From assembly GCF_022985615.1 (NCBI RefSeq), contig NZ_CP094965.1:124327-156326 (forward strand): a DNA stretch of 32,000 nucleotides. Reading direction: 5' to 3'. Positions 2,370-32,000 of this stretch are shown here, piece by piece. The notes below the pieces were generated by a model. The model was not told the DNA's origin. It searched no databases and worked only from the letters and a program-made list of their open reading frames with translations. Made by a program: the position numbers and the translations under genes. Position 1 is the first letter of the stretch. Each line of letters opens with the position of its first letter. Source of the DNA: Candidatus Karelsulcia muelleri (GTDB lineage Bacteria; Bacteroidota; Bacteroidia; Flavobacteriales; Blattabacteriaceae).

Positions 2370-2839
2370 TGAGAAAATTAAAAAAAAAAAAAATAATATA
2401 CGAACCAGATCCAAAATTTAAAGAACCATTAGTTACAAGATTTGTGAATCATTTAATGAAACATGGTAAAAAAAAATTAGCCTATAGAATATTTTATAAT
2501 TTTATAGATGAATTAGAAAAGATCAATAATAATAAAAAAGGAATAAAAATTTGGAAAAAAGCTTTAAAAAATGTGACTCCACAAGTCTATATAAGAAGTA
2601 AACGGATAGGAGGGACAAAAATAAATATACCAATTATTCTACCAAAAACCTTACAATTAACTAAAGCTATGAAATTACTTATTAATAGTTCGAAAGAAAG
2701 AAAAGAAAAAGCAATGTATAAGAAATTAGCAGGAGAAACCTTAGCAGCTTACAAAAAAGAAGGAAGAGCAATAAAAAAAAAAGAGAATATGCATAAAATA
2801 GCTGAATCCAATAAAGCCTTTTCACATATAAAATTTTAA
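2369..2839 (+). CDS. rpsG: 30S ribosomal protein S7
   Basis: 156 aa. DPKFKEPLVTRFVNHLMKHGKK and the C-terminal ENMHKIAESNKAFSH(I)KF match S7. The ATGA overlap with rpsL and the str-operon order support the call. Confidence 0.93.
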   Translation: MRKLKKKKIIYEPDPKFKEPLVTRFVNHLMKHGKKKLAYRIFYNFIDELEKINNNKKGIKIWKKALKNVTPQVYIRSKRIGGTKINIPIILPKTLQLTKAMKLLINSSKERKEKAMYKKLAGETLAAYKKEGRAIKKKENMHKIAESNKAFSHIKF

Positions 2840-2869
2840 AAAACATCACATATAAAATTTTAAAAAACA
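2822..2869. repeat. 24-bp perfect tandem duplication (x2) spanning the rpsG stop codon
   Basis: TCACATATAAAATTTTAAAAAACA occurs at 2822-2845 and again at 2846-2869, 24/24 identical. Each copy carries ...SHIKF-TAA. Confidence 0.97.
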
Positions 2870-7974: not shown

Positions 7975-8309
7975 TGTTTAAAAACAAAAAATTAGATTTC
8001 TATTATAAATCTAATAATATTAATTATTCAAAAATTAAGCTGATAAAATTAATTAATATTATTAAGTCGAAAAATATTGAAGATATAATGAATTTATTGA
8101 TAAATTTTAAAACAAAAGGAGCAATACTTTTAAAAGAGATAATTTTGAATGCTTATAAGAATTTTAGGAGACAATCCCCCAAAAAAAATGTATATATAAA
8201 AAACATTATAATTAACAAAAGCCGAATTTTTAAAAAAATTAGGCCAACTTCACAGGGTAGAGCTAAGAAAATAAAAAAACAATTTTTTAAAATGATTTTG
8301 ATTTTTTAA
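7974..8309 (+). CDS. rplV: 50S ribosomal protein L22 (divergent)
   Basis: 111 aa. The position between rpsS and rpsC fits, and KKIRPTSQGRAKKIKK corresponds to the L22 R(A)MGRA..I.KR motif. The C-terminus and stop lie inside a 19-bp tandem duplication. Confidence 0.85.
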   Translation: MFKNKKLDFYYKSNNINYSKIKLIKLINIIKSKNIEDIMNLLINFKTKGAILLKEIILNAYKNFRRQSPKKNVYIKNIIINKSRIFKKIRPTSQGRAKKIKKQFFKMILIF

Positions 8310-8320
8310 AATGATTTTGA
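8283..8320. repeat. 19-bp perfect tandem duplication (x2) spanning the rplV stop codon
   Basis: TTTTTTAAAATGATTTTGA occurs at 8283-8301 and 8302-8320, 19/19 identical. Confidence 0.97.
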
Positions 8321-8345
8321 TACTTTACCAGGAAAAAAAGAAAAA

Positions 8346-17470: not shown

Positions 17471-17577
17471 TTTATCGCATTGTTTGTTTTTAAACAAACA
17501 ATGAGGAAAGTAAAGTATGTTAAGTATAAGTATAAGTATAAGTATAAGTATAAGTATGTTGATTTATCGCATTGTTT
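17460..17577. repeat. duplicated rnpB 5' domain (52-bp copy, 9-bp and 26-bp partial copies) with an (AAGTAT)n hexanucleotide microsatellite
   Basis: 17460-17511 is 52/52 identical to 17578-17629 (the rnpB 5' end through GAGGAAAGT). AAGTATGTT is at 17513-17521, AAGTAT x5 at 17522-17551, and a partial copy AAGTATGTTGATTTATCGCATTGTTT at 17552-17577. Confidence 0.95.
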
Positions 17578-17899
17578 AAGTATGTTGATTTATCGCATTG
17601 TTTGTTTTTAAACAAACAATGAGGAAAGTCTGGAATCACTAGGGATAACGCAACGGGTAACTCCCGTACATCGTGAGATGAGGAATAGTGCAACAGAAAG
17701 TATGTACAGTTGAGCTGTAGTGAAATCATGTAAACTCTGTGTTGTGAAATGCCAAATATACCAGAAGTATAGTAGTATAGTTCATCCCTAACTAAATATC
17801 TGCTAACTAAATATCTGGGGGGTAGGCAGATCGAGATAAAGGGTAACTTTTATCCTAGATAAATGATAAATTAAACTGAATCCGGCTTATAACATACTT
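17578..17899 (+). ncRNA. rnpB: RNase P RNA (bacterial type A, reduced)
   Basis: The 5' AAGTATGTT pairs with the 3' AACATACTT (P1). A perfect P3-like hairpin is present (CATTGTTTGTT-TTTAA-AACAAACAATG). Universal elements are present: GAGGAAAGTCTGG (P4 5' strand), AGTGCAACAGAAAGTATGTACAG, GGGGTAGGCAGATCGAG, and CCTAGATAAATGA...ACTGAATCCGGCTTAT (P4 3' strand). The 5' boundary is ambiguous because that segment is duplicated upstream. Confidence 0.85.
17766..17817. repeat. two perfect tandem duplications inside rnpB (8 bp x2 and 15 bp x2)
   Basis: AGTATAGT x2 at 17766-17781; CTAACTAAATATCTG x2 at 17788-17817. Confidence 0.95.
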
Positions 17900-17903
17900 T
17901 TTT

Positions 17904-19580
17904 TTAAAAATATTTCTCTATATTATTTATATCTAATAAGAATAAGATTTTTTGTTTGAATTTTAATAAATTATCAATTTTTAATATTTGTTTTATTAGC
18001 TTCCTTATTGTTAAGGAAGCAATCTTTTGTTTTGTTTCTAATTTATAAAAATTATATATATTTTTATATATTAATTTTTCAATGATTTTATCATCTTGGT
18101 AAATATAAAGATCATATAATAACCTATATACATATATTTTTTTTAAAAACTTAGGAGAATAAGTAATTGAAATAGAATTTTCAAAACATTTTATTTTAAA
18201 ACCAAAATTAATTAAAATTTCTATAATTTTGGTTTTAGTTTTTTTAGTAAAAAATTTATTCAATTTAATATTTATCGGTGGGTATAATTTATAGATTTTG
18301 TGTTTTTTTATTTCTTTTTTAAACTTATCCTCTAAAATTATTTTATAGACTCTATCTTTATGAATAATTAAAACACCAAAATCTAAAAGACATAATATAT
18401 ATTTTTTATAGATCTTAAATTGGGTAAAATCCAGATCTATTTTCTTAAGATCTATTTTCTTAAGAAATATTTTATTAAGAAATATTTTCTTAAGAAATAT
18501 TTTATTAAGAAATTCTTGACAATTATTATTTAGGTTGCGGTTTTTTTCTTCTTTATCTTTTTTTTTAGAGTAAAACTTAAAAATATTCTGTAGGCCTAAA
18601 TATTCTTTAATTATTATATTTATATTTTTACAAATTTCTGACTCTGATTTAATGAGTATTTTGTTTTTGGATTGACAAATATTAATTTCAATTTGTTTGG
18701 TTGGAATAGTAAGAAATAAAAAATAATTTGGTTTATTAGTTTTGTTTATTAGACCGTTATAGGCTTTAATAATAGACTTGTGAATTCTTTTGTTTACTAC
18801 GTATCTATTATTAACAAACAAATAATAATTCTTAAATTGAGTATTAAAAAAACTTGTAGAAGTGATATATCCTTTTATAAGAAATAATTTATCTTTTTTA
18901 AAAACTTTGATTAAGACATTTTTATAATATTCGCCAAAAATTTTAATTATTCTATATTTTAGATTTGATTTTTTTAAACTGGTAATTATCTTATTATTAT
19001 GCATCATAACAAAATTAATATCAGGGTGTGAAAGAACTATCTTATTAAATTCTGATATGATATATCTTAATTCAATATGGGCAGATTTTAAAAAGTTTTT
19101 TCTATTGGGGAAATTGTAAAATAAGTTTTTCACATATATACTAGTACCATTTAATAAATTATTTAATAATACAGGGGGATATTTAAGCTTTTGATTTTCT
19201 AATGTTAAGAAGACTCCAAATTCTGATTTGGTTTTTTTAGTGTATATTTCTACCTGGCTAACTAAAGAAATATAGTATAAAGCTTCACCTCGAAAGCCTT
19301 TAGTATTTAGTGATTTGATATCTTTAAGAGAATATAATTTGGAAGTATAAAATCTCCTAATACTATTTTTCGCTTCTAAATGATTCATTCCATCACCATC
19401 ATCTATAACATTAATTAAATCTTTCCCACCATTCAATAATATCAATTTAATATTTTTTGAATGTGCATCAATTGAGTTTTCTAATAATTCTTTTACTACA
19501 GAAGCTGGTCTTTTAATTACATATCCTGCTGAAATTTTATTTGAATCTTGTGTGGGTAGAATTTTTATGGTATTTTTCAT
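17904..19580 (-). CDS. mutL: DNA mismatch repair protein MutL (ATPase domain conserved, C-terminal domain highly divergent)
   Basis: 558 aa. The N-terminal GHKL ATPase motifs are ISAGYVIKRPASVVKELLENSIDA, VIDDGDGM and GFRGEALYYISLVS. An in-frame 15-bp repeat lies in the linker. The CTD aligns only loosely. Confidence 0.88.
   Translation of the reverse strand: MKNTIKILPTQDSNKISAGYVIKRPASVVKELLENSIDAHSKNIKLILLNGGKDLINVIDDGDGMNHLEAKNSIRRFYTSKLYSLKDIKSLNTKGFRGEALYYISLVSQVEIYTKKTKSEFGVFLTLENQKLKYPPVLLNNLLNGTSIYVKNLFYNFPNRKNFLKSAHIELRYIISEFNKIVLSHPDINFVMMHNNKIITSLKKSNLKYRIIKIFGEYYKNVLIKVFKKDKLFLIKGYITSTSFFNTQFKNYYLFVNNRYVVNKRIHKSIIKAYNGLINKTNKPNYFLFLTIPTKQIEINICQSKNKILIKSESEICKNINIIIKEYLGLQNIFKFYSKKKDKEEKNRNLNNNCQEFLNKIFLKKIFLNKIFLKKIDLKKIDLDFTQFKIYKKYILCLLDFGVLIIHKDRVYKIILEDKFKKEIKKHKIYKLYPPINIKLNKFFTKKTKTKIIEILINFGFKIKCFENSISITYSPKFLKKIYVYRLLYDLYIYQDDKIIEKLIYKNIYNFYKLETKQKIASLTIRKLIKQILKIDNLLKFKQKILFLLDINNIEKYF
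18433..18510. repeat. 15-bp in-frame tandem repeat (~5 copies) in the mutL linker
   Basis: AGATCTATTTTCTTA x2, then AGAAATATTTTATTA / AGAAATATTTTCTTA / AGAAATATTTTATTA. On the minus strand this encodes FLNKI-FLKKI-FLNKI-FLKKI-DLKKI-DL. Confidence 0.95.
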
Positions 19581-21088: not shown

Positions 21089-21095
21089 TAAAAGA

Positions 21096-21127
21096 ATATT
21101 AAGACCTTGAAATATTAAGACCTTGAA
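21096..21127. repeat. 16-bp perfect tandem duplication (x2) copying the 3' acceptor end of tRNA-Arg plus its trailer
   Basis: ATATTAAGACCTTGAA occurs at 21096-21111 and 21112-21127. The second copy overlaps tRNA positions 21118-21127. Confidence 0.96.
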
Positions 21128-21191
21128 GGGAGTTGAACCCTTACTCTTCTGATCCGTAGTCAGATGCTTTATCCAATTAAGCTACAAGGCC
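21118..21191 (-). tRNA. tRNA-Arg (anticodon ACG)
   Basis: Hand-folded minus-strand sequence: GGCCTTG-TA-GCTT-AATTGGATA-AAGC-A-TCTGA-CTACGGA-TCAGA-AGAGT-AAGGG-TTCAACT-CCCTT-CAAGGTC-T. All four stems pair (one G-U in the acceptor), the T-loop is TTCAACT, the anticodon loop is CT-ACG-GA, and no CCA is encoded. Confidence 0.9.
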
Positions 21192-23929: not shown

Positions 23930-24736
23930 ATTTCTCTTTTTATAGGTGAAGAAGAATATCTTATAAAAGAATATATAGAAGAGATAGAGAATCTTTTAAA
24001 GAACAGGATTCTAAATATATTATAGAAGTAAAAGAAGAAGATAGAATAACCAATATTTTACACTCTTACTCTATTTAAAGAATATAAGTTAATTATTCTT
24101 AAAAATTCGTAAGATCTAAATCTAAGCTTAGATAACTTAGAAAAATTACTAAAAAAGACCTCGAAAAGAAATATTTTCATTTTTTGTATTAATTTCGTAA
24201 TTCACTCACGAAATTTATAATTTTATAATTTTATTAAAAAAAACACAAATAACAACATAGAAATTATAAATAATAAAAAATTAACTTTTGGTGAAATTTT
24301 GTATTTAGTAAAAAGAAAAATAAAAAAAATAGGCTTAAAGATAAATGAAATAACAGTAAAAAAAATGATACAATCTGTTGATTCCAATTTATTTATGCTT
24401 GAAAATGAGTTAAAAAAAATAAGATTTAATAATATTAATAATATAGCTGACAATTATAATTATAAACTTCTTCATAATGAATTTAAAATAATTTTAAAGA
24501 TGCTTGAAGTCCACCCCCTAACTTTAATCTTAAATAAGATATATAAACTATACTTAGAAAAAGTTATGACTTATAATAATAATGAAGAAAAATTTAATAA
24601 AATAGCTAATTTAGTTTTTCTGCTAAAAGAAGCAGAGAAAAAAAATAAGAGCTATTTTTTAAAAAAGGAAGAAATAATGAAAGAACTAATTTATAAAATA
24701 TGTCAAATAGAGAAAGAGAAATCTTTGATTGTATAA
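23882..24736 (+). pseudogene. holA: DNA polymerase III delta subunit, single frame interrupted by five in-frame stops in its first ~113 codons; the C-terminal 172 codons are open
   Basis: One frame reads MIMINLTNIKIKEIKQISLFIGEEEYLIKEYIEEIENLLKNRILNIL*K*KKKIE*PIFYTLTLFKEYKLIILKNS*DLNLSLDNLEKLLKKTSKRNIFIFCINFVIHSRNL*FYNFIKK...LTFGEILYLVKRKIKKIGLKINEITVKKMIQSVDSNLFMLENELKKI.... It follows the HolA pattern (Y...GEE.yLi, slF.e.kLiil.n, l..l....s....+if, i......G..i...a...l......l..l.nEl.Kl). Stops are at 24023 (TAG) and at 24029, 24047, 24110 and 24218 (all TAA). No frameshift is needed. Confidence 0.55.
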
Positions 24737-25641: not shown

Positions 25642-25664
25642 CCAACCTTATTAAAGTTCAATAA
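25622..25664. repeat. 23-bp-period tandem duplication spanning the trxB stop codon
   Basis: ACCTTATTAAAGTTCAATAA occurs at 25622-25641 (ending with the trxB TAA) and again at 25645-25664, 20/20 identical. Confidence 0.95.
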
Positions 25665-25669
25665 AGAAT

Positions 25670-25722
25670 ATAAAAGAAAAAATAAAAGAAAAAATAAATA
25701 TTAGATACTTTATTAGATACTT
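25670..25722. repeat. two adjacent 12-bp tandem duplications
   Basis: ATAAAAGAAAAA x2 at 25670-25693; TATTAGATACTT x2 at 25699-25722. Confidence 0.9.
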
Positions 25723-25750
25723 AGAAGTTTTCTTTTCTTATCATGGATTA

Positions 25751-25849
25751 AGTACAAACAAACAAACATAACAAAGTACAAATAAACAAACAAACATAAC
25801 ATAACATAACATAAGTAAGTAAGTACAAACAAGTAAGTAAAGTACAAAC
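25751..25849. repeat. compound microsatellite block
   Basis: AGTACAAAC-type words recur 4 times. (ACAA)n runs are present, with CATAA x4 at 25795-25814 and GTAA x2.75 at 25815-25825. Confidence 0.85.
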
Positions 25850-25921
25850 ATTATTTACATTTTTAATTCTTTTATTATTTACATTTTTAATTCTTTTATT
25901 ATTTACATTTTTAATTCTTTT
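25850..25921. repeat. 24-bp perfect tandem repeat x3
   Basis: ATTATTTACATTTTTAATTCTTTT occurs at 25850-25873, 25874-25897 and 25898-25921, all identical. Confidence 0.96.
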
Positions 25922-25934
25922 TTCTTTTACAAAT

Positions 25935-26145
25935 AGCAGTTAGCTGCTAATCAGCAGTTAGCTGCTTATCAGCAGTTAGCAGCAGTTAGTTAGCAGCAGT
26001 TAGCTGCTAATCAGCAGTTAGCAGCAGTTAGTTAGCAGCAGTTAGCTGCTAATCAGCAGTTAGTTAGCAATCGTTAGCTAATGCTAATCAATCAATCAGC
26101 AAGCAGTTTGCTAATCAATCAATCAGTTAGTTAGCTAATGCTAAG
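25935..26145. repeat. GC-enriched modular palindromic repeat array (higher-order 42-bp unit)
   Basis: The modules are A=AGCAGTTAGCTGCTAATC (18), B=AGCAGTTAGC (10) and C=AGCAGTTAGTTAGC (14). They occur in the order A-A'-B-C-A-B-C-A-C (25935-26068). A degenerate tail (26069-26145) has GCTAATCAATCAATCAG x2 and TTAGCTAATGCTAA x2. The modules are built from the inverted words TTAGC/GCTAA and AGCAG/CTGCT. Confidence 0.93.
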
Positions 26146-26262
26146 TTTTAATAAGTATTTCTTAAAAAAGATATTTATTATTTTATTATTTATTACTTTT
26201 ATATTAAAAAAAGTTTTTTAGCGATTATTAATAAATTGTTGTAAACTAGGATCTTTATTAGG

Positions 26263-26322
26263 ACTTACTTACTTGTGTTTACAGTAACTTGTTTTTACAG
26301 TAACTTACTTGTGTTTACAGTA
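26263..26322. repeat. 16-bp tandem repeat x3 with ACTT micro-expansions
   Basis: ACTTGTGTTTACAGTA (26271-26286), ACTTGTTTTTACAGTA (26287-26302) and ACTTGTGTTTACAGTA (26307-26322), flanked by extra ACTT units. Confidence 0.9.
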
Positions 26323-26582
26323 AATTGCCTTCATTTTATTCCAAAGTATTTTTTTTAAAAGCTATTATTTTAAATAAATTCTTAAAAAGATCTCTTTTTT
26401 AAATTATTATTTTTTAATTATTAATTATTAGAAAGTTTATTTCTATTTCTTATATAAGAAGAGAAAATATATAGAAATAATTCTGATAATAAGATAAAAT
26501 ATCAATAAACAATTGTAAATAACATTTTTTGTTTTCTTTATAATATTTTTTTCTTTTTCTTTATCTTTTCGTTTCATTTATC

Positions 26583-27617
26583 TTATGGTCTTAATTTTCG
26601 TATTAATTCTCCAACTTTCCATAATTCACTATTTTTTAATTCCTTTAATTCTTTCTTTAAAATCTCTCTATAATTACTTTTACTATTTAATGAAATAGTT
26701 CGTTCTGCCTCTTTTCCAGAAGACACGTCTTTATAAAGTTCTCTAAATAAAGAAATATTAGTGTCTCTAAATTTTTTCCACCAATCTAAAGCACCTCTTT
26801 GAGCAGTAGTAGAGCAATTTTCATACATCCAATCCATTCCTTTTTCTGCTATTAAAGGCATAAGACTTTGAGTAAGCTCTTCTACTGTTTCATTAAAGGC
26901 TTCAGAAGGTGAGTGACCATTCTCTCTTAAAACTTGGTATTGTGCTGAAAATAACCCTTGAATAGCTCCCATTAATGTTCCTCTTTCACCTGTTAAATCT
27001 GAAAACACTTCTTTTTTAAAAGTTGTTTTAAATAAAAAAGCAGAACCTATACCTATACCAATTGCTAAAGCTCTTTTTTTAGCTTTCCCAGTATAATTTT
27101 GATATATTGCATAACTAGAATTTAGTCCTTTTCCTTCTTTAAATAATCTTCTCAAAGATGTTCCTGAACCTTTAGGTGCAACAAGAAAAATATCAATTTC
27201 CTTTGGTGGTAATATTTTCGTTTTTTTATTGAATGTTAATCCAAAACCATGAGAAAAATATAAAGCTTTTCCTGGGCAAAGAAATTTTTTAATTTTTGGC
27301 CAAACCTCAATCTGACCAGCATCAGATAATAAAAACATAATGATACTTCCTTTATCTGCTGCTTCTTCTATTTCGAATAGAGTTTCATTAGCTATCCATC
27401 CATCTTTTAAAGCTTTTTGCCACGATTTTGAATTTTTTCTTTGGCCTACTATTACATTGAACCCATTATCTCTTAAATTTAATGCTTGACCAGGTCCTTG
27501 TACACCATATCCTATCACTGATATTATTTCATTTGATAATATTTTTCTGGCTTTACTTAAACTAAAGTCCTTTTTAGTTATAATTTCTTCTTCTATTTCT
27601 CCAATTTTCAACTTCAT
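26583..27617 (-). CDS. ilvC: ketol-acid reductoisomerase
   Basis: 344 aa. GYGVQGPGQALNLRDNG, the class I KARI core (SHGF, LVAPKG.G...R), ERG.L.G and CSTTA..GA match KARI. Confidence 0.95.
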   Translation of the reverse strand: MKLKIGEIEEEIITKKDFSLSKARKILSNEIISVIGYGVQGPGQALNLRDNGFNVIVGQRKNSKSWQKALKDGWIANETLFEIEEAADKGSIIMFLLSDAGQIEVWPKIKKFLCPGKALYFSHGFGLTFNKKTKILPPKEIDIFLVAPKGSGTSLRRLFKEGKGLNSSYAIYQNYTGKAKKRALAIGIGIGSAFLFKTTFKKEVFSDLTGERGTLMGAIQGLFSAQYQVLRENGHSPSEAFNETVEELTQSLMPLIAEKGMDWMYENCSTTAQRGALDWWKKFRDTNISLFRELYKDVSSGKEAERTISLNSKSNYREILKKELKELKNSELWKVGELIRKLRP

Positions 27618-27806
27618 TTATTTAATGCTTTATTTATATTATATAGAATATAATAATAGAATATATAATATAATATAATATAATTAATTATCTAATTAAT
27701 TAGATATTATATATAATATTAAGAGAATATAATATAATATTATCTTATCTAAGATTCTAGAATATAGAATAAAATAATCTAATTACTTTGATAGATACTA
27801 TAATGC

Positions 27807-28267
27807 ATAGCATTATTGACAATAATAAATAAATAATAGCATTTATTATTTATTATTATGAGGATTGATTATTTATGATATGATAATAAATAATAAATAA
27901 TAGCATTTATTATTTATTAGGATGAGGATTGATTATATGATAATAACTAATAAATAATAGCATTTATTATTTATTAGGATGAGGATGAGAATAAATAATA
28001 GCATTTATTACAAGAATAAATAGCATTTATTATTTATTAGGATGATATGATAATAAATAATAGCATTTATTACAAGAAATAATAAATAGCATTTATTTAT
28101 TATAATTAATTATGAATTTAATATTATTATTATGATTAATTATATTATTATTATTATTATTAATTATTAATTATGATATTTATGATATGATTTACAATAC
28201 AATACAATAATAAATAAATAGCATTAATTATGATATTTAGGATTTACAATAATAAATAGCATTTATT
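27807..28267. repeat. array of ~10 copies of an AATAAATA(AT)AGCATTTATT-type unit running from the ilvC upstream region into the 3' end of ilvN
   Basis: The core ATAGCATT starts at about 27807, 27836, 27900, 27957, 27998, 28020, 28060, 28086, 28218 and 28256. The first three long units (~57-64 bp) also share TTAGGATGAGGATTGATTAT. The last copy encodes the INAIYY C-terminus of ilvN. Confidence 0.9.
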
Positions 28268-28473
28268 CCTATAATTTTAAATAATCGTATAATTATTTTT
28301 AAGATGTTTTCTACTACACATTCAATCTCTAGTATACAGAAAACTTTATCGTCTTTTTTAAAAGATATATTTTTTTTTATTTCTAAATTAATTTTATTAA
28401 AAATCATAACTATTCTCTGATTAAAATCAGAAGTATTTTCTGAAAAAATATATAAACTTATTTTTTTTTTCAT
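28237..28473 (-). CDS. ilvN: acetolactate synthase small (regulatory) subunit, reduced to a single ACT-like domain
   Basis: 78 aa. The position immediately downstream of ilvB (6-nt gap) fits. ISLYIFSENTSDFNQRIVMIFNKINLEI resembles the ACT-domain start (L.+.VEN..GVL.R+.GLF.RR.+NI.S+). It is far shorter than typical IlvH. Its last codons lie in a repeat copy. Confidence 0.55.
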   Translation of the reverse strand: MKKKISLYIFSENTSDFNQRIVMIFNKINLEIKKNISFKKDDKVFCILEIECVVENILKIIIRLFKIIGINAIYYCKS

Positions 28474-28479
28474 TTTTTC

Positions 28480-30159
28480 TTAAAAACATATTTTTGATAC
28501 TGATTTTTCAGTCGGTATCATTGGTAGGGTATTATACTCTTTTTCGACTAAAATTTCTATTAAAAAAACCTCTTTAGATTTTAACATTTTCTTTATATTT
28601 TCTTTTAATTTTTCTTTAACAAATACTTTTTTACTTTTTATGTTATATGCTTTTGAAAGGTTAGTAAAATTTGGATTATATATTTTAGTATTAGAAAATC
28701 TTCTATTAAAGAATAAATCTTGCCATTGTTTTACCATTCCTAAAAAATTATTATTAAGAATTATAATTTTGATAGGTATTTCATATTGCATTATTGTCCC
28801 AAGTTCTTGAATAGTCATTTGAAACCCCCCATCTCCTACTATACATATTACTTGACGTCTTTTAGCACCTATCTTGGCACCAATAGCAGCTGGTAAAGCA
28901 AATCCCATTGTACCTAAACCTCCTGATGTTATTTGACTTTTCAGAGTAGTAAAATTAAAATATCTTGAGGCAGACATTTGATGTTGACCTACATCAGTTA
29001 CTAATATACAATTAGTTTTTTTATATAAATTTATATAATTTATTACTTCTGGCATAGTAATCCCTATTTTGTTTTTTATAAATTCTTTTTCTTTTACATA
29101 TTTCCTTTCTACTTTCTTTAATAAGTTAAAGGTTTTTACCCATTTTTCTGTGCTATTGGTTTTAAAGTTTTTAATTAAATAATTTAAATTATGTTTTAAA
29201 TTTCCTAGTAAATAAATAGTAGGTTTTAGTCTTTTGTTAATTTCGTAATTATCTATATCTATATGTATGATTAGAGTTTTTGGGGAAATTGTTTTTATAT
29301 TTCCTATAAGTCTATCATCAAAACGTAAACCTATTGCAATTATTAAATCAGATTTTAAAATTAAAATATTATTTTGGTAATTTCCATGCATTCCTAACAT
29401 ACCATAGTTCAAATTATGGTTGGTCTTTAAAATTCCCATACCTAATAAAGTACTAGCTACTGGTATGTTGGTCTTTTCTGCAAATTGTTTTAATTGATTT
29501 TCTGCATTTGCTAGTTTTACTCCTTGTCCAATTATTATTATTGGTTTACGGGCTTTTTTAATTGTTTTAATTACCTTTTGTAATTCTTTTTTATTAATTT
29601 TATTTTGTGTTTTTAGATTTGTTTTGGTTTTGGGTGGAAATATTATTACTTGGTTTAGTTGTTGAACCTGGGTATTTTTTGTTATATCTATTAATATAGG
29701 ACCTGGTCTACCATTTGTGGCTAGGTTTAAACCTTTAGATATTACTTCGAATATTTGATCTGGTTTAGTTATTTGAAAATTCCATTTTGTCACTGGTATT
29801 GATATGTCTATTATATCTATTTCTTGAAAGGCATCTGTTCCTAATAAATTTGAAGAAACTTGACCAGTTATACATAATAATGGAGTACTATCAATTAGAG
29901 CATCGGCTAAACCAGTAATTAGATTACTGGATCCGGGACCTGATGTAGATAAACAAATACCTGGTTTTCCAGTTACTCTAGCATACCCTTGGGCTGCATG
30001 AATTGATCCTTGTTCATGACGAGTTAATATGTGTTTTATTTGTTTTTTGTAAGTGAACAAGGAATCATATATTGGCATTACTGCACCACCTGGATAACCA
30101 AAAATAAATTTTACCTTATTATAAATTAAAGTTTTAACTATAATTTCAGCCCCTGTCAT
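28480..30159 (-). CDS. ilvB: acetolactate synthase, large (catalytic) subunit
   Basis: 559 aa. GAEIIVKTL......FGYPGGAVMPIYD, TRHEQGSIHAAQGYARVTGKPG.CL.TSGPG..NL.TG.ADA..DS.PL, and the ThDP motif GDGGFQM..QEL.T......P.KI..LNN..LGMV.QWQ match ALS. Confidence 0.95.
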   Translation of the reverse strand: MTGAEIIVKTLIYNKVKFIFGYPGGAVMPIYDSLFTYKKQIKHILTRHEQGSIHAAQGYARVTGKPGICLSTSGPGSSNLITGLADALIDSTPLLCITGQVSSNLLGTDAFQEIDIIDISIPVTKWNFQITKPDQIFEVISKGLNLATNGRPGPILIDITKNTQVQQLNQVIIFPPKTKTNLKTQNKINKKELQKVIKTIKKARKPIIIIGQGVKLANAENQLKQFAEKTNIPVASTLLGMGILKTNHNLNYGMLGMHGNYQNNILILKSDLIIAIGLRFDDRLIGNIKTISPKTLIIHIDIDNYEINKRLKPTIYLLGNLKHNLNYLIKNFKTNSTEKWVKTFNLLKKVERKYVKEKEFIKNKIGITMPEVINYINLYKKTNCILVTDVGQHQMSASRYFNFTTLKSQITSGGLGTMGFALPAAIGAKIGAKRRQVICIVGDGGFQMTIQELGTIMQYEIPIKIIILNNNFLGMVKQWQDLFFNRRFSNTKIYNPNFTNLSKAYNIKSKKVFVKEKLKENIKKMLKSKEVFLIEILVEKEYNTLPMIPTEKSVSKICF

Positions 30160-31999
30160 TTATATTCTCTGTAATACACCCTTCAGAAGCTGAGTCATTT
30201 ATATTCTCTGTAATACACCCTTCAGAAGCTGAGTCATTTATATTCTCTGTAATACACCCTTCAGAAGCTGAGTCATTTATATTCTCTGTAATACACCCTT
30301 CAGAAGCTGAGTCATTTATATTCTCTGTAATACACCCTTCAGAAGCTGAAGATACTAATTTGGAATATTTAGATAAATAGCCTGAATTTGAATTATTCTT
30401 TGGTCTTTTATATTCTTTTTTTCTATTTAGTAAATCTTTTTTGGAGATTTTTAATGTTATTCGATTTTTTATAGCATCTATCTTTATTATATCTTTTTCT
30501 TGTATTAGTGCAATTACTCCACCAATTTGTGCTTCGGGTGTTATATGACCAACTACAAAACCATGAGTTCCACCTGAGAATCTGCCATCGGTTATTAAAG
30601 CAACTTTATTTCCTAATCCGGCTCCCATAATATATGAAGTAGGTTTTAACATTTCAGGCATTCCTGGACTTCCTTTGGGTCCAACATATCTGATTACTAT
30701 AACATCTCCAGATTTAATCTTATTATTTAATATTGCCTTATTGGCTTCTATTTCGGAATCAAATACTTTAGCTCTTCCAGAAAAGCAATGTCCTTCTTTT
30801 CCTGAAATTTTAGCTACGGCTCCTTTAGGTGCAATATTACCGTATAATATACGAATATGTCCTTTATTTTGTATTGGTTTGTATAATGTTGAAATTACTT
30901 TTTGATTCGAAAAAGATATATTGGGTATACCTTCTAAATTTTCTTTTATTTTTTTTCCTGTCACAGTTAAGCACTCACCATTTAGTAAGCCTTCATTTAG
31001 CAAGTATTTCATTATAATAGGAGTCCCTCCAATTGTTTCTATATCTTCCATTAAATACTTACCACTCGGTTTAAGATTCCCTATTATTGGAACATTTTCA
31101 GTAAGCTCTTTTATATTATCAATATTAAATTTGATTTTGGCTGTTTTACATATTGCTAATATATGTAATACTAAGTTAGTTGAACCGCCTAAAGCAATAG
31201 CAACTGTAATTGCATTTTTTATGGAATTTTTAGTAATTATTTTTTTAGTATTTATATTTTTTTTTAATAATTCTTTCATATAATAACCTATTTTCTTACA
31301 TTCATATTTTTTATTTATATTATTAGCTAAACAAGAAGAAGAAAAAGGTAATGTCATTCCTAAGGCTTCTAAGCTTGTGGCAACTGTGTTAGCTGTATAC
31401 ATTCCACCACAAGCTCCAGGACCTGGACAAGCATTTTTTATTATGTTTTGGTATTCTGAATTTGAGATTTGGCCTATATTTTTTTGGCCTAATGCCTCAA
31501 ATGCTGAGACAATATTTAATTTTTTTCCTTGGTATTTTCCTGATTCTATGCTACCACCATAAATTATTATTGCTGGTCTTTCTGTTCTTATTATACCCAT
31601 CAACACTCCTGGTATATTCTTATCGCAGCCTGGTATTCCAATTATACCATCATAATGTTGAGCTTTTACTACACTTTCTATACTATCTGCTATTATCTCT
31701 CTAGATGGCAAAGAATATTTCATACCTTCTGTACCCATTGTCATTCCATCACTTACTCCAATTGTATTAAACTGAAATCCAATCATATTATTTTTATTTA
31801 TTGATTTTTTTGCTTCTTTAGATAAAAGATTAAGATGCATATTACATGGGTTCCCCTCATACCAATTGCTTACTACTCCTATTTGTGGTTTATATAAATC
31901 TTTTGCTTTGATTCCTGTGGCATATAACATAGCCCTGTAAGCTGGTAATTCATCACTCTTGATTAAATGAGAACTATAGGTAGTATTTATTATAGCCAC
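30146..31999 (-). CDS. ilvD: dihydroxy-acid dehydratase with a 5x tandem 13-aa C-terminal repeat; the start lies at or beyond the window edge
   Basis: 617-aa ORF. GNPCNMHL, VSDGMTMGTEGMKYSLPSREIIADSIE, GIPGCDKN.PG, CPGPGACGGMYTANT, LITDGRFSGGTHGFVVGHI.PEA and SSASEGCIT are IlvD/Edd signatures. The GTG at 31997-31999 may or may not be the true start. The C-terminus carries SASEGCITENIND x5. Confidence 0.95.
   Translation of the reverse strand: MAIINTTYSSHLIKSDELPAYRAMLYATGIKAKDLYKPQIGVVSNWYEGNPCNMHLNLLSKEAKKSINKNNMIGFQFNTIGVSDGMTMGTEGMKYSLPSREIIADSIESVVKAQHYDGIIGIPGCDKNIPGVLMGIIRTERPAIIIYGGSIESGKYQGKKLNIVSAFEALGQKNIGQISNSEYQNIIKNACPGPGACGGMYTANTVATSLEALGMTLPFSSSCLANNINKKYECKKIGYYMKELLKKNINTKKIITKNSIKNAITVAIALGGSTNLVLHILAICKTAKIKFNIDNIKELTENVPIIGNLKPSGKYLMEDIETIGGTPIIMKYLLNEGLLNGECLTVTGKKIKENLEGIPNISFSNQKVISTLYKPIQNKGHIRILYGNIAPKGAVAKISGKEGHCFSGRAKVFDSEIEANKAILNNKIKSGDVIVIRYVGPKGSPGMPEMLKPTSYIMGAGLGNKVALITDGRFSGGTHGFVVGHITPEAQIGGVIALIQEKDIIKIDAIKNRITLKISKKDLLNRKKEYKRPKNNSNSGYLSKYSKLVSSASEGCITENINDSASEGCITENINDSASEGCITENINDSASEGCITENINDSASEGCITENINDRG
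30156..30350. repeat. 39-bp tandem repeat x5 across the ilvD 3' end / ilvB start overlap
   Basis: TCATTTATATTCTCTGTAATACACCCTTCAGAAGCTGAG occurs at 30156, 30195, 30234, 30273 and 30312. Four copies are identical, and the fifth differs only at its last base (30350). Confidence 0.97.
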
Positions 32000-32000
32000 A

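What the first reader, a model, noticed from the sequence alone, without database searches (positions are those of the whole stretch)
30146..30350. 39-bp x5 repeat across the ilvD/ilvB overlap: a 52-aa IlvD tail extension and four decoy ilvB start sites forming back-to-back mini-ORFs
The unit contains the end of ilvD and the ATG plus upstream context of ilvB. The two genes overlap by 14 nt: ilvD stops at 30146 and the ilvB ATG is the complement of 30157-30159. Five copies are present, four identical and one differing at a single terminal base. There are two consequences. First, IlvD ends with SASEGCITENIND repeated five times instead of once. Second, on the same mRNA there are four extra ATGs (complement of 30196-98, 30235-37, 30274-76, 30313-15). 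Each has at least 33 nt of upstream context and the first five nucleotides (ATGAC) identical to the genuine ilvB start. Each opens a 12-codon ORF, MTQLLKGVLQRI, ending in a TAA that directly abuts the next ATG (TAAATG). Ribosomes would therefore face a chain of termination-reinitiation steps before reaching ilvB. The 39-bp period preserves the ilvD frame. This looks like a natural experiment on translational coupling between two enzymes of the same pathway.
Basis: partly seen in the sequence, partly recalled or inferred. Interest (0 to 1): 0.75.

Follow-up and report, generated by a model that had tools for sequence, protein, structure and literature searches.

The report
Tandem repeat spanning ilvD–ilvB gene junction
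In the tiny genome of a lanternfly's nutritional symbiont (Sulcia), a 39-base stretch holding the end of one amino-acid-synthesis gene and the start of the next is copied five times in a row; the repeat is real, recent and fast-changing, lengthens one enzyme's tail and puts four mini-genes in front of the next enzyme, and is probably tolerated rather than useful.

Summary
Window 30155-30349 is a perfect 39-bp x 5.0 array on the minus-strand ilvD/ilvB junction. IlvD ends (SASEGCITENIND)x5-RG. Four 12-codon ORFs (MTQLLKGVLQRI), in the ilvB frame, each end in a TAA that abuts the next ATG.

The genome is Candidatus Karelsulcia (Sulcia) muelleri from a Pyrops lanternfly. Relatives give an allelic series:
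- Outgroups have one copy and an ATGA overlap.
- A closer strain, found in four independent short-read assemblies, has the exact single-copy precursor with the 14-nt overlap.
- The sister genome CP094964 has 1x39 + 4x30 bp.
- CP094963 has different 17-, 12- and 5-nt duplications of the same start region.

The same lineage also carries many other near-perfect tandem duplications in spacers and at gene edges, and these differ in copy number between sister genomes.

Best reading: a young, unstable minisatellite made by slippage or unequal exchange. It is tolerated because the first unit keeps IlvD's conserved C-terminus, the last unit keeps the real ilvB start, and the ilvD stop geometry is unchanged.

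ilvD ribosomes read straight through, and the mini-ORFs can only add ribosomes to ilvB. Function is untested. Interest is moderate.

The parts
30155..30349 (-). 39-bp x 5 perfect tandem array. Units are 30311-30349, 30272-30310, 30233-30271, 30194-30232 and 30155-30193.
   Evidence: TRF score 390 with 100% matches. Five exact matches against 0.00 expected.
30311..30349 (-). Unit 1. It encodes the native, conserved IlvD C-terminal motif SASEGCITENIND. A552, G555, C556 and T558 are invariant in 42 homologues.
   Evidence: Solved dihydroxy-acid dehydratases (DHADs) align up to ...GC(V/I)T(D/E) and end 1-3 residues later.
30155..30193 (-). Unit 5. It holds the genuine ilvB start context and ATG (30157-30159).
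   Evidence: TIGR00118 aligns from residue 1.
30146..31999 (-). ilvD (dihydroxy-acid dehydratase), 617 aa as listed. This equals GenBank UOQ38238.1. The true ATG is probably just beyond the window and contig end. The stop TGA is at 30146-30148.
   Evidence: Relatives begin MVAI..., one codon earlier.
28480..30159 (-). ilvB (acetolactate synthase large subunit), 559 aa. It overlaps ilvD by 14 nt.
   Evidence: P0139 is 100% identical, contig 156,326 bp.
30277..30315 (-). Mini-ORF 1, MTQLLKGVLQRI*. Its TAA abuts the next ATG.
30238..30276 (-). Mini-ORF 2, identical to mini-ORF 1.
30199..30237 (-). Mini-ORF 3, identical to mini-ORF 1.
30160..30198 (-). Mini-ORF 4, identical to mini-ORF 1. Its TAA (30160-62) abuts the genuine ilvB ATG at 0-nt spacing.
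28237..28473 (-). 78-aa ORF downstream of ilvB in the same gene string. It is possibly a remnant of the small subunit. It was used as the exact-match probe that retrieved L013 and L014.
   Evidence: no family hit.
26583..27617 (-). ilvC, the last gene of the ilvD-ilvB-ORF78-ilvC string. It is flanked by repeat-filled spacers.

Best explanation
This is a young, lineage-specific minisatellite (a variable-number tandem repeat). A 39-bp piece of the ilvD-stop/ilvB-start overlap of a Pyrops-lanternfly Sulcia was duplicated in tandem and expanded to five units by replication slippage or unequal exchange. The genome accumulates such duplications wherever they are tolerated.

Consequences read directly from the sequence:
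1. IlvD keeps its complete conserved C-terminus in unit 1 and then carries four more copies, probably as a disordered tail.
2. The ilvD reading frame still stops at the same TGA, 11 nt past the genuine ilvB ATG. The -14-nt coupling geometry is therefore the same as in the single-copy ancestor.
3. Four 12-codon ORFs in the ilvB frame are created. Each ends in a TAA that touches the next ATG.

Inferred working:
- Ribosomes finishing ilvD reinitiate at the nearest start, which is the true one.
- Ribosomes that load de novo on an extra ATG can hop by termination-reinitiation at 0-nt spacing down to ilvB. The array therefore adds ribosome entry points rather than diverting ribosomes.
- The net effect on IlvD and IlvB output is small, and the array persists as a near-neutral, rapidly mutating tract.
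For: The array is real and exact.

The unit derives from the junction, and the order of events is recoverable:
- Outgroups have one copy with an ATGA overlap: L014, L001 (DICMUL) and L002 (OPOL2).
- The next-closest strain has the exact single-copy precursor ...TCAGCTTCGGAAGGGTGTATTACAGAGAATATAAATGAC|AGGGGC with the 14-nt overlap. It is assembled straight through in four independent SRA runs.
- Differences over about 3.2 kb are WIN-L003 3, WIN-L013 11, WIN-L015 30 and WIN-L014 36.

The array is unstable:
- The sister genome CP094964 has 39 + 4x30 bp at the same site.
- CP094963 has different nested 17-, 12- and 5-nt duplications.

The trait is genome-wide:
- The window holds 14 tandem duplications of period >=9 with at least 95% matches (11 of them perfect), mostly in spacers or at gene edges.
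- Bases in tandem repeats (period >=9, score >=50) over the orthologous ilvD-to-ilvC segment fall from 853 (window), 736 and 485 in the Pyrops clade to 327, 184 and 48 in outgroups.
- Several arrays differ by whole units between the window and CP094964.
- The two unusually long spacers in the ribosomal-protein operon (37 and 36 nt) are exactly those that contain duplications.

Assembly: the published genomes were built from Nanopore reads and polished with Illumina reads, and the authors note that Sulcia fragmented in short-read assemblies.

Tolerance of the IlvD tail:
- In branched-chain DHADs the C-terminus is short, does not point at the neighbouring active site, and its last residue is not conserved (PMC11316719).
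- The AF2 model gives pLDDT 22-28 for the added copies.
- Long-term dN/dS for ilvD, ilvB and ilvC is 0.12-0.30, so the genes are functional.

Coupling logic comes from the review PMC12548453:
- After termination the nearest start is used (phage fr).
- Spacings of -4 to +3 nt are the most efficient.
- Short ORFs can deliver ribosomes to a downstream gene.
- MIRU elements insert at start codons with little effect on expression.

Nothing suggests a regulatory element: the RNA fold has z = +0.82 and there is no promoter-like or terminator-like site in the array.
Against: - Two independent duplication histories hit the same roughly 20-nt ilvB start region in sister lineages, and only after the ATGA overlap was lost. 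This could mean selection rather than a permissive site.
- Both unit lengths in the window/L003 pair (39 and 30) keep the frame, and both genomes have five units.
- ilvB shows 9 nonsynonymous against 1 synonymous difference between the window and L013. The counts are small, but something may have changed for ilvB in this clade.
- No expression data exist.
- The nearest-start rule and the spacing rules come from E. coli and its phages, not from a Shine-Dalgarno-poor Bacteroidota symbiont.
- Reads could not be inspected, so within-host heterogeneity and the exact unit structure are unverified.
Confidence: 0.65

Rival explanations
1. Compensatory or adaptive start-site amplification. A 4-nt deletion changed the ilvD/ilvB spacing from the optimal -4 (ATGA) to -14 and weakened coupling. 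Lineages then repaired ilvB translation in different ways. L013 regained an ATGA overlap through a +34-nt duplication. The window and L003 lineage multiplied the ilvB start into a ladder of mini-ORFs, coupled at 0-nt spacing, that feeds extra ribosomes to ilvB. Copy number would act as a tunable gain.
For: - The order of events fits: -4 in L014, L001 and L002; -14 with one copy in L015-L018; then independent duplications that all include the ATG context.
- Larger overlaps reduce coupling more than equivalent gaps do. Spacings of -4 to +3 nt are best, and short ORFs can deliver ribosomes (PMC12548453).
- The units stay in frame (39 and 30 nt), and there are five units in both sister genomes.
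Against: - The genome is full of other, evidently neutral tandem duplications.
- Gene junctions are among the few permissive sites, so recurrence there is not very improbable.
- The uncompensated -14 single-copy allele persists in another strain.
- Regaining ATGA has a 1 in 3 chance for any insertion.
- The extra ATGs need de novo initiation, whose efficiency is unknown.
- No expression data exist.
Confidence: 0.18
2. Assembly or polishing artefact. The copy number, or the 39-versus-30 unit structure, is wrong in one or both deposited genomes, or the sequence represents one of several coexisting variants.
For: - The array (195 bp) is longer than the 150-nt Illumina reads used for Pilon polishing.
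- The odd 39 + 4x30 structure in CP094964 could be a polishing effect.
- Reads could not be examined here.
Against: - The assemblies are Canu Nanopore assemblies checked by read mapping.
- Assemblers tend to collapse repeats rather than expand them.
- Two independently assembled sister genomes both show five units sharing the GAC|TCAGC junction.
- Sulcia fragmented in short-read assemblies, as real repeats would cause.
- The single-copy allele assembles through cleanly in short-read data.
Confidence: 0.08
3. The repeated IlvD tail is itself functional, for example as a flexible Cys-containing linker, an interaction tail or a stability tail, and the mini-ORFs are a by-product.
For: - The frame is preserved in both sister arrays.
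- Each unit carries the invariant G-C-x-T motif.
Against: - No other IlvD among the 120 best hits of 8,000 scored, or among the 17 members seen of the 35-member cluster of close relatives, has a repeated tail.
- The tail is predicted to be disordered.
- The DHAD C-terminus is not part of the active site.
- L003 drops EGC from four of its units.
Confidence: 0.04
4. Leader-peptide-type attenuator. Mini-ORFs rich in Leu, Val and Ile sense branched-chain amino-acid supply and regulate ilvB.
For: - 5 of the 12 codons are Leu, Val or Ile.
- E. coli ilvB and ilvG are controlled by such leader peptides (general knowledge).
Against: - Leu+Val+Ile content is not above the genome background of 25.5% (P = 0.17).
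- There is no terminator or alternative hairpin, and the fold has z = +0.82.
- The ORFs lie inside ilvD coding sequence, not in a 5' leader.
- They arise trivially from the out-of-frame reading of a duplicated tail.
Confidence: 0.01

Closest known systems
MIRU-VNTR loci of mycobacteria (Supply et al. 1997, as summarised in PMC12548453 and PMC3184786)
   Same: - Units of 40-100 bp sit in tandem between co-transcribed genes.
- Each unit carries a small ORF in the same direction, whose ends overlap or abut the neighbouring start and stop codons, so translation can be passed on.
- Copy number varies between strains.
- They are thought to have minimal effect on the downstream gene.
   Different: - MIRUs are a dispersed, probably mobile family of about 40-50 loci with -4-nt coupling.
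- Here the unit is a local duplication of the junction itself and is found nowhere else in the window.
- Spacing is 0 nt (TAA|ATG).
- The array also lies inside the upstream coding frame and lengthens that protein.
Translational coupling at overlapping stop/start codons (trpE-trpD; phage fr and MS2 coat-lysis; review PMC12548453)
   Same: - The genes are co-oriented and overlap: ATGA in relatives and 14 nt here.
- There are several candidate starts upstream of a stop, as in the fr constructs, where the start nearest the stop was used exclusively.
   Different: - Coupling is untested in this organism, an unculturable Bacteroidota symbiont that probably uses Shine-Dalgarno sequences little.
- The multiple starts arose naturally by duplication and are themselves linked by mini-ORFs.
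[quoted passage not shown]
   Same: An ancient, tiny, normally static obligate-symbiont genome gains lineage-specific repetitive DNA and enlarged spacers.
   Different: - The Portiera case is linked to dnaQ loss and causes rearrangements.
- Here gene order in the region is collinear with the sister genomes, the arrays are short, and mutL is present (itself carrying a repeat).
- holA is a pseudogene in two of the three Pyrops genomes, but the holA-intact one also has arrays.
ilv leader peptides (ivbL, ilvL) and transcription attenuation in enterobacteria
   Same: Short ORFs containing Leu, Val and Ile codons lie upstream of an acetolactate synthase gene.
   Different: There is no terminator or antiterminator, no enrichment of regulatory codons, and the location is inside a coding gene. 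This is a resemblance only.
In-frame coding VNTRs and contingency loci of bacterial pathogens
   Same: A perfect tandem repeat in a coding sequence, with copy number and structure that differ between close relatives.
   Different: The period is a multiple of 3, so there is no on/off frame switching. The protein is a housekeeping enzyme, not a surface protein. The host is a clonal intracellular symbiont.

Membership tests
Tandem repeat / minisatellite (VNTR) formed by slippage or unequal exchange | Head-to-tail copies of one unit with high identity | tested here: met
   5.0 copies at 100% identity.
Tandem repeat / minisatellite (VNTR) formed by slippage or unequal exchange | Derived from local single-copy sequence that is present once in relatives | tested here: met
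   One copy in L015-L018, L014, L012, L001 and L002, and in the 14 further members seen of the 35-member IlvD cluster.
Tandem repeat / minisatellite (VNTR) formed by slippage or unequal exchange | Copy number or unit structure varies between close relatives | tested here: met
   5x39 in the window against 39 + 4x30 in CP094964, with only 3 substitutions in 3.2 kb of flanking genes.
Tandem repeat / minisatellite (VNTR) formed by slippage or unequal exchange | Variation within a host or population | not testable with these tools
Translationally coupled gene pair (termination-reinitiation) | Co-oriented neighbours with overlapping or abutting stop and start codons | tested here: met
   14-nt overlap between ilvD and ilvB, 0-nt spacing between mini-ORFs and onto ilvB, and ATGA in outgroups.
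Translationally coupled gene pair (termination-reinitiation) | Downstream translation depends on upstream translation | not testable with these tools
   Needs reporter assays or Ribo-seq.
MIRU-like intercistronic repeat | Tandem units between operon genes, each with a small ORF whose ends meet the neighbouring start and stop codons | tested here: met
MIRU-like intercistronic repeat | Member of a dispersed family present at many loci | tested here: not met
   The unit occurs only at this site in the window, even allowing 3 mismatches. It is a local duplication.
Leader-peptide transcription attenuator | Alternative hairpins with an intrinsic terminator downstream of the leader ORF | tested here: not met
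   No terminator-like site in the array, and the fold z-score is +0.82.
Leader-peptide transcription attenuator | Enrichment of codons for the regulating amino acids | tested here: not met
   5 of 12 codons are Ile, Leu or Val against a background of 25.5% (P = 0.17).
Phase-variable contingency locus | A change in repeat number shifts the frame or promoter spacing | tested here: not met
   Periods of 39 and 30 nt are multiples of 3, and there is no promoter-like site.
IlvD/Edd dehydratase (for the upstream gene) | Full-length match above the curated cut-off | tested here: met
   PRK00911 at 762 bits (cut-off 644). The best PDB match is 9ix7, E = 8e-188.
Biosynthetic acetolactate synthase large subunit (for the downstream gene) | Full-length match above the curated cut-off, starting at the proposed ATG | tested here: met
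   TIGR00118 at 647 bits (cut-off 538), residues 1-557.

The most novel reading that the evidence does not exclude
After a 4-nt deletion destroyed the optimal ATGA (-4) coupling between ilvD and ilvB, sister Sulcia lineages independently repaired ilvB translation by duplicating its start region. One lineage regained ATGA. The window's lineage built a copy-number-tunable 'ribosome feeder ladder' of in-frame mini-ORFs coupled at 0-nt spacing. This would be a natural, evolvable translational gain control in a genome that has no regulators.
Probability: 0.15. Interest if true: 0.7.

Novelty: new variant of a known kind. Interest (0 to 1): 0.5.

Why it matters
Sulcia is the textbook example of a frozen, gene-dense symbiont genome. 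This work shows that a Pyrops-associated lineage carries fast-evolving minisatellites, and that one of them sits on an overlapping gene junction of the branched-chain amino-acid pathway that the host depends on. The genome paper does not mention any of this.

Public data already hold a natural allelic series at this junction: an ATGA overlap; a single-copy 14-nt overlap; 5x39; 39 + 4x30; and a 17-nt variant that regained ATGA. Cloned into reporters, the series would test two things in a Shine-Dalgarno-poor bacterial context. The first is how stop/start spacing affects translational coupling. The second is how upstream mini-ORFs affect it.

The arrays have practical uses too. They are ready-made strain markers, and they warn that short-read assemblies and automatic annotation (IlvD called at 617 or 605 aa) can be misled by them.

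Tried and rejected
- Exact-protein look-ups for the window's IlvB and IlvD, and for P0001 and P0133, found no gene positions. The neighbouring genomes were reached instead through IlvC, the 78-aa ORF and the Logan protein P0140.
- A literature search for the accession numbers found nothing. The two Sulcia/Vidania papers do not mention these repeats.
- The attenuator idea was rejected: no terminator, no significant RNA structure and no Ile/Leu/Val enrichment.
- The internal-promoter idea was rejected: no sigma-70-like site in the array, and by eye no Bacteroidota TTTG / TAnnTTTG motif in the unit.
- Microhomology at the duplication borders was looked for by eye. None was found: the array is exactly 5.0 units with no partial copy.
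- The AF2 model was only moderate (mean pLDDT 70), so it was used only to say that the tail is not confidently structured. No fold search was run.
- The dN/dS values inside the Pyrops clade rest on ten or fewer substitutions and are treated as a hint only.


Full report
**1.
Tandem Repeats Finder reports one array at 30155-30349: period 39, 5.0 copies, 100% matches, score 390. This is the top score in the window. The minus-strand unit TCAGCTTCTGAAGGGTGTATTACAGAGAATATAAATGAC matches five times exactly and head to tail, with 0.00 matches expected from shuffles.

- The minus-strand ORF 30146-31999 is dihydroxy-acid dehydratase (PRK00911, 762 bits, cut-off 644).
- The ORF 28480-30159 is the biosynthetic acetolactate synthase large subunit (TIGR00118, 647 bits, cut-off 538, aligned from residue 1).
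- They overlap by 14 nt.

Direct translation gives ...KLVS(SASEGCITENIND)x5RG* for IlvD. In the ilvB frame it gives MTQLLKGVLQRI* four times and then MTGAEIIVK.... There are two small corrections. All five units are identical. The mini-ORFs share the ilvB frame, separated by single TAA codons.

**2. Where the window comes from.**
IlvD relatives identify Candidatus Karelsulcia (Sulcia) muelleri of planthoppers. The 617-aa IlvD is GenBank UOQ38238.1, on a 156,326-bp chromosome.

The two nearest genomes are CP094964 (155,888 bp, L003) and CP094963 (156,700 bp, L013). Their sizes match the three Pyrops lanternfly symbiont genomes of Deng et al. 2023 (PMC10333215), and so does the holA pattern: intact only in L013, a remnant in the window and L003.

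Those genomes were assembled with Canu from Nanopore reads, then polished with medaka and Pilon using 2x150 Illumina reads. [quoted passage not shown] That paper and a later survey do not mention these repeats.

**3. An allelic series at the junction.**

| Allele | Source | Junction |
|---|---|---|
| a | Outgroups: DICMUL (L001), OPOL2 (L002), CM132443 (L014) | One copy, ATGA overlap (...ENRNK*, ATGACAGGGGCTGAA) |
| – | CM132438 (L012) | One copy, a different tail, +4-nt gap |
| b | Contigs from runs SRR31864639, -48, -50 and -27 (L015-L018) | Exact single-copy precursor ...GTATCT\|TCAGCTTCGGAAGGGTGTATTACAGAGAATATAAATGAC\|AGGGGCTGAA. It is 4 nt shorter than (a), so IlvD reads on to ...ENINDRG* with the 14-nt overlap |
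| c | The window | 5x39 |
| d | L003 | 1x39 + 4x30. Units 2-5 lack GAAGGGTGT. The tail is SASEGCITENIND(SASITENIND)x4RG and the mini-ORFs are MTQLLLQRI*, still TAA\|ATG |
| e | L013 | No 39-bp repeat. Nested 17-, 12- and 5-nt duplications of the start context: ATTA[C AGAGAATATAAA AGAGAATATAAATGAC][C AGAGA AGAGAATATAAATGAC]AGGGGC. Net +34 nt, tail ...ENIKENINDQRREYK*, one extra ATG, and an ATGA overlap regained |

Substitution counts over about 3.2 kb of ilvD and ilvB are WIN-L003 3, WIN-L013 11, WIN-L015 30 and WIN-L014 36. This gives the tree ((WIN,L003),L013),L015,L014.

The inferred order of events is therefore:
1. An ATGA overlap.
2. A 4-nt deletion, leaving a single copy with a 14-nt overlap.
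3. Two independent duplication histories. One is shared by the window and L003 (they share the GAC|TCAGC joint). The other is in L013.

The array changes much faster than point substitutions accumulate.

**4. The array is one of many.**
The window holds 14 tandem duplications of period >=9 with at least 95% matches, 11 of them perfect.
- Most lie in spacers or at gene edges: the rpsG stop, the rplV 3' end, the rnpB 5' end, the tRNA-Arg 3' end, and the two long spacers that flank ilvC.
- Those fully inside genes have periods 9, 15 and 39. A less perfect 15-bp x 5 array lies in mutL. All of these periods are multiples of 3.

Over the orthologous ilvD-to-ilvC segment, bases in tandem repeats (period >=9, score >=50) number 853 in the window, 736 in L003 and 485 in L013. 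The outgroups have 327, 184 and 48. Several arrays differ by whole units between the window and L003. This is the pattern of a lineage-wide tendency to make, or failure to remove, tandem duplications, filtered by purifying selection.

**5. What the array does to the two proteins.**

*IlvD.*
- Unit 1 encodes the native C-terminus. A552, G555, C556 and T558 are invariant in 42 homologues, and solved DHADs align to ...GC(V/I)T(D/E) and end 1-3 residues later.
- In branched-chain DHADs, unlike sugar-acid dehydratases, the C-terminus is short, does not point into the partner's active site, and its last residue is not conserved (PMC11316719).
- AF2 gives pLDDT 22-28 for the added copies.
- A floppy 52-residue extension is therefore plausibly tolerated. 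This is an inference.

*ilvB.*
- The ilvD frame runs through the array and stops at the same TGA, 11 nt past the genuine ATG, as in the single-copy allele. The geometry seen by terminating ribosomes is unchanged.
- In the phage fr experiments summarised in PMC12548453, ribosomes reinitiate exclusively at the start nearest the stop. Here that is the true ATG, and the next one is 39 nt further away.
- The extra ATGs matter only for de novo initiation. Each has the same 34-nt upstream context and is linked to the next start at 0-nt spacing. This lies inside the -4 to +3 nt range where coupling is most efficient.
- Because they lie upstream, they can add ribosomes to ilvB. Diversion is not expected unless there is steric queuing.
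- All of this is inference from E. coli and phage rules.

There is no sign of a regulatory RNA: the fold has z = +0.82, there is no terminator-like or promoter-like site in the array, and Ile+Leu+Val content is not enriched (P = 0.17). Long-term dN/dS of 0.12-0.30 shows that the genes are functional.

**6. Verdict on mechanism.**
The most likely reading (about 0.65) is a near-neutral, unstable minisatellite that happens to sit on a permissive junction.

The main rival (about 0.18) is compensation.
- The 4-nt deletion moved spacing from -4 to -14, which should weaken coupling.
- Both descendant lineages then altered exactly the start region. One regained ATGA and the other built a feeder ladder.
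- Points in its favour are the recurrence, the in-frame unit lengths of 39 and 30, five units in both sister genomes, and 9 nonsynonymous against 1 synonymous change in ilvB within the clade (small numbers).
- Points against are the many evidently neutral arrays, the survival of the uncompensated allele, and the 1 in 3 chance of regaining ATGA.

An assembly or polishing artefact (about 0.08) cannot be excluded without reads, especially for the 39 + 4x30 structure. It is nevertheless unlikely given long-read assemblies and two concordant five-unit arrays.

**7. Comparison with known systems.**
The array works most like a MIRU-VNTR locus of mycobacteria: tandem intercistronic units, each with a small ORF that meets the neighbouring start and stop codons, and variable in number. 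It fails membership because it is a local duplication rather than a dispersed family. It also lengthens the upstream protein, which MIRUs are not described as doing.

It also illustrates coupling at overlapping genes. It parallels the repeat expansion known in Portiera, but without rearrangement.

I rate it a new variant of a known kind, of moderate interest. Its value lies in the ready-made allelic series and in showing repeat instability in a genome famous for stasis.

Noticed in passing
window 17904-19580 (-), repeat at 18438-18513: mutL carries an in-frame 15-bp x 5.1 repeat (91% matches) in the linker after its N-terminal domain. Its C-terminal dimerisation domain scores only 16.5 bits against Pfam MutL_C (cut-off 25). 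A repair gene is thus itself hit by the repeat process.
   Followed up: partly
window 17521-17603 and 17788-17817: The first 26 nt of RNase P RNA (Rfam hit 17577-17904) are duplicated perfectly just upstream: 17551-17576 equals 17577-17602. This is preceded by (TAAGTA)x6. A perfect 15-bp x 2 duplication also lies inside rnpB.
   Followed up: no
window 21095-21127: A perfect 16-bp x 2.1 duplication overlaps the 3' end of tRNA-Arg(ACG) (21118-21191, minus strand) next to the lysS start. No difference from CP094964 was found at this site.
   Followed up: no
window 2822-2869 and 8282-8321: Perfect duplications (24 bp x 2 and 19 bp x 2.1) span the rpsG stop and the rplV 3' end. These are the only two junctions in the ribosomal-protein operon with spacers of about 36 nt. 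The 19-bp period alters the last codons of L22.
   Followed up: no
window 25642-26582 and 27618-28236: Two unusually long spacers (940 and 619 bp) are filled with arrays of period 12-64 bp that differ in copy number from CP094964. The first lies between the convergent genes trxB and ilvC, where GC skew changes sign, so it is possibly the replication terminus.
   Followed up: partly
window 28237-28473 (-): A 78-aa ORF directly downstream of ilvB is conserved in relatives (78-91 aa). It has no Pfam or NCBIfam hit. It is probably a remnant of the acetolactate synthase small subunit.
   Followed up: partly
window 24299-24736 (+); L013 7444-8316: This is a holA remnant of 145 aa in the window and 147 aa in L003. 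The gene is intact (290 aa, DNA_pol3_delta) in L013, the P. clavatus Sulcia, matching the paper's statement. The loss does not track repeat accumulation cleanly, because L013 also has arrays.
   Followed up: partly
ilvB, window 28480-30159 versus L013: Within the Pyrops clade ilvB shows 9 nonsynonymous against 1 synonymous difference. ilvD shows 1:0 and ilvC 1.5:2.5, and the long-term dN/dS is about 0.28. This may indicate relaxed or altered constraint on ilvB, but the counts are small. IlvB position 146 (L/I) is also homoplasious.
   Followed up: partly
window 31999-32000 (window end = contig end): The deposited chromosomes are linearised inside the ilvD start. Relatives begin MVAI..., so the ATG lies across the circular junction, and ilvD is annotated from the GTG one codon later (617 and 605 aa). 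RefSeq has no WP entry for either long form.
   Followed up: no
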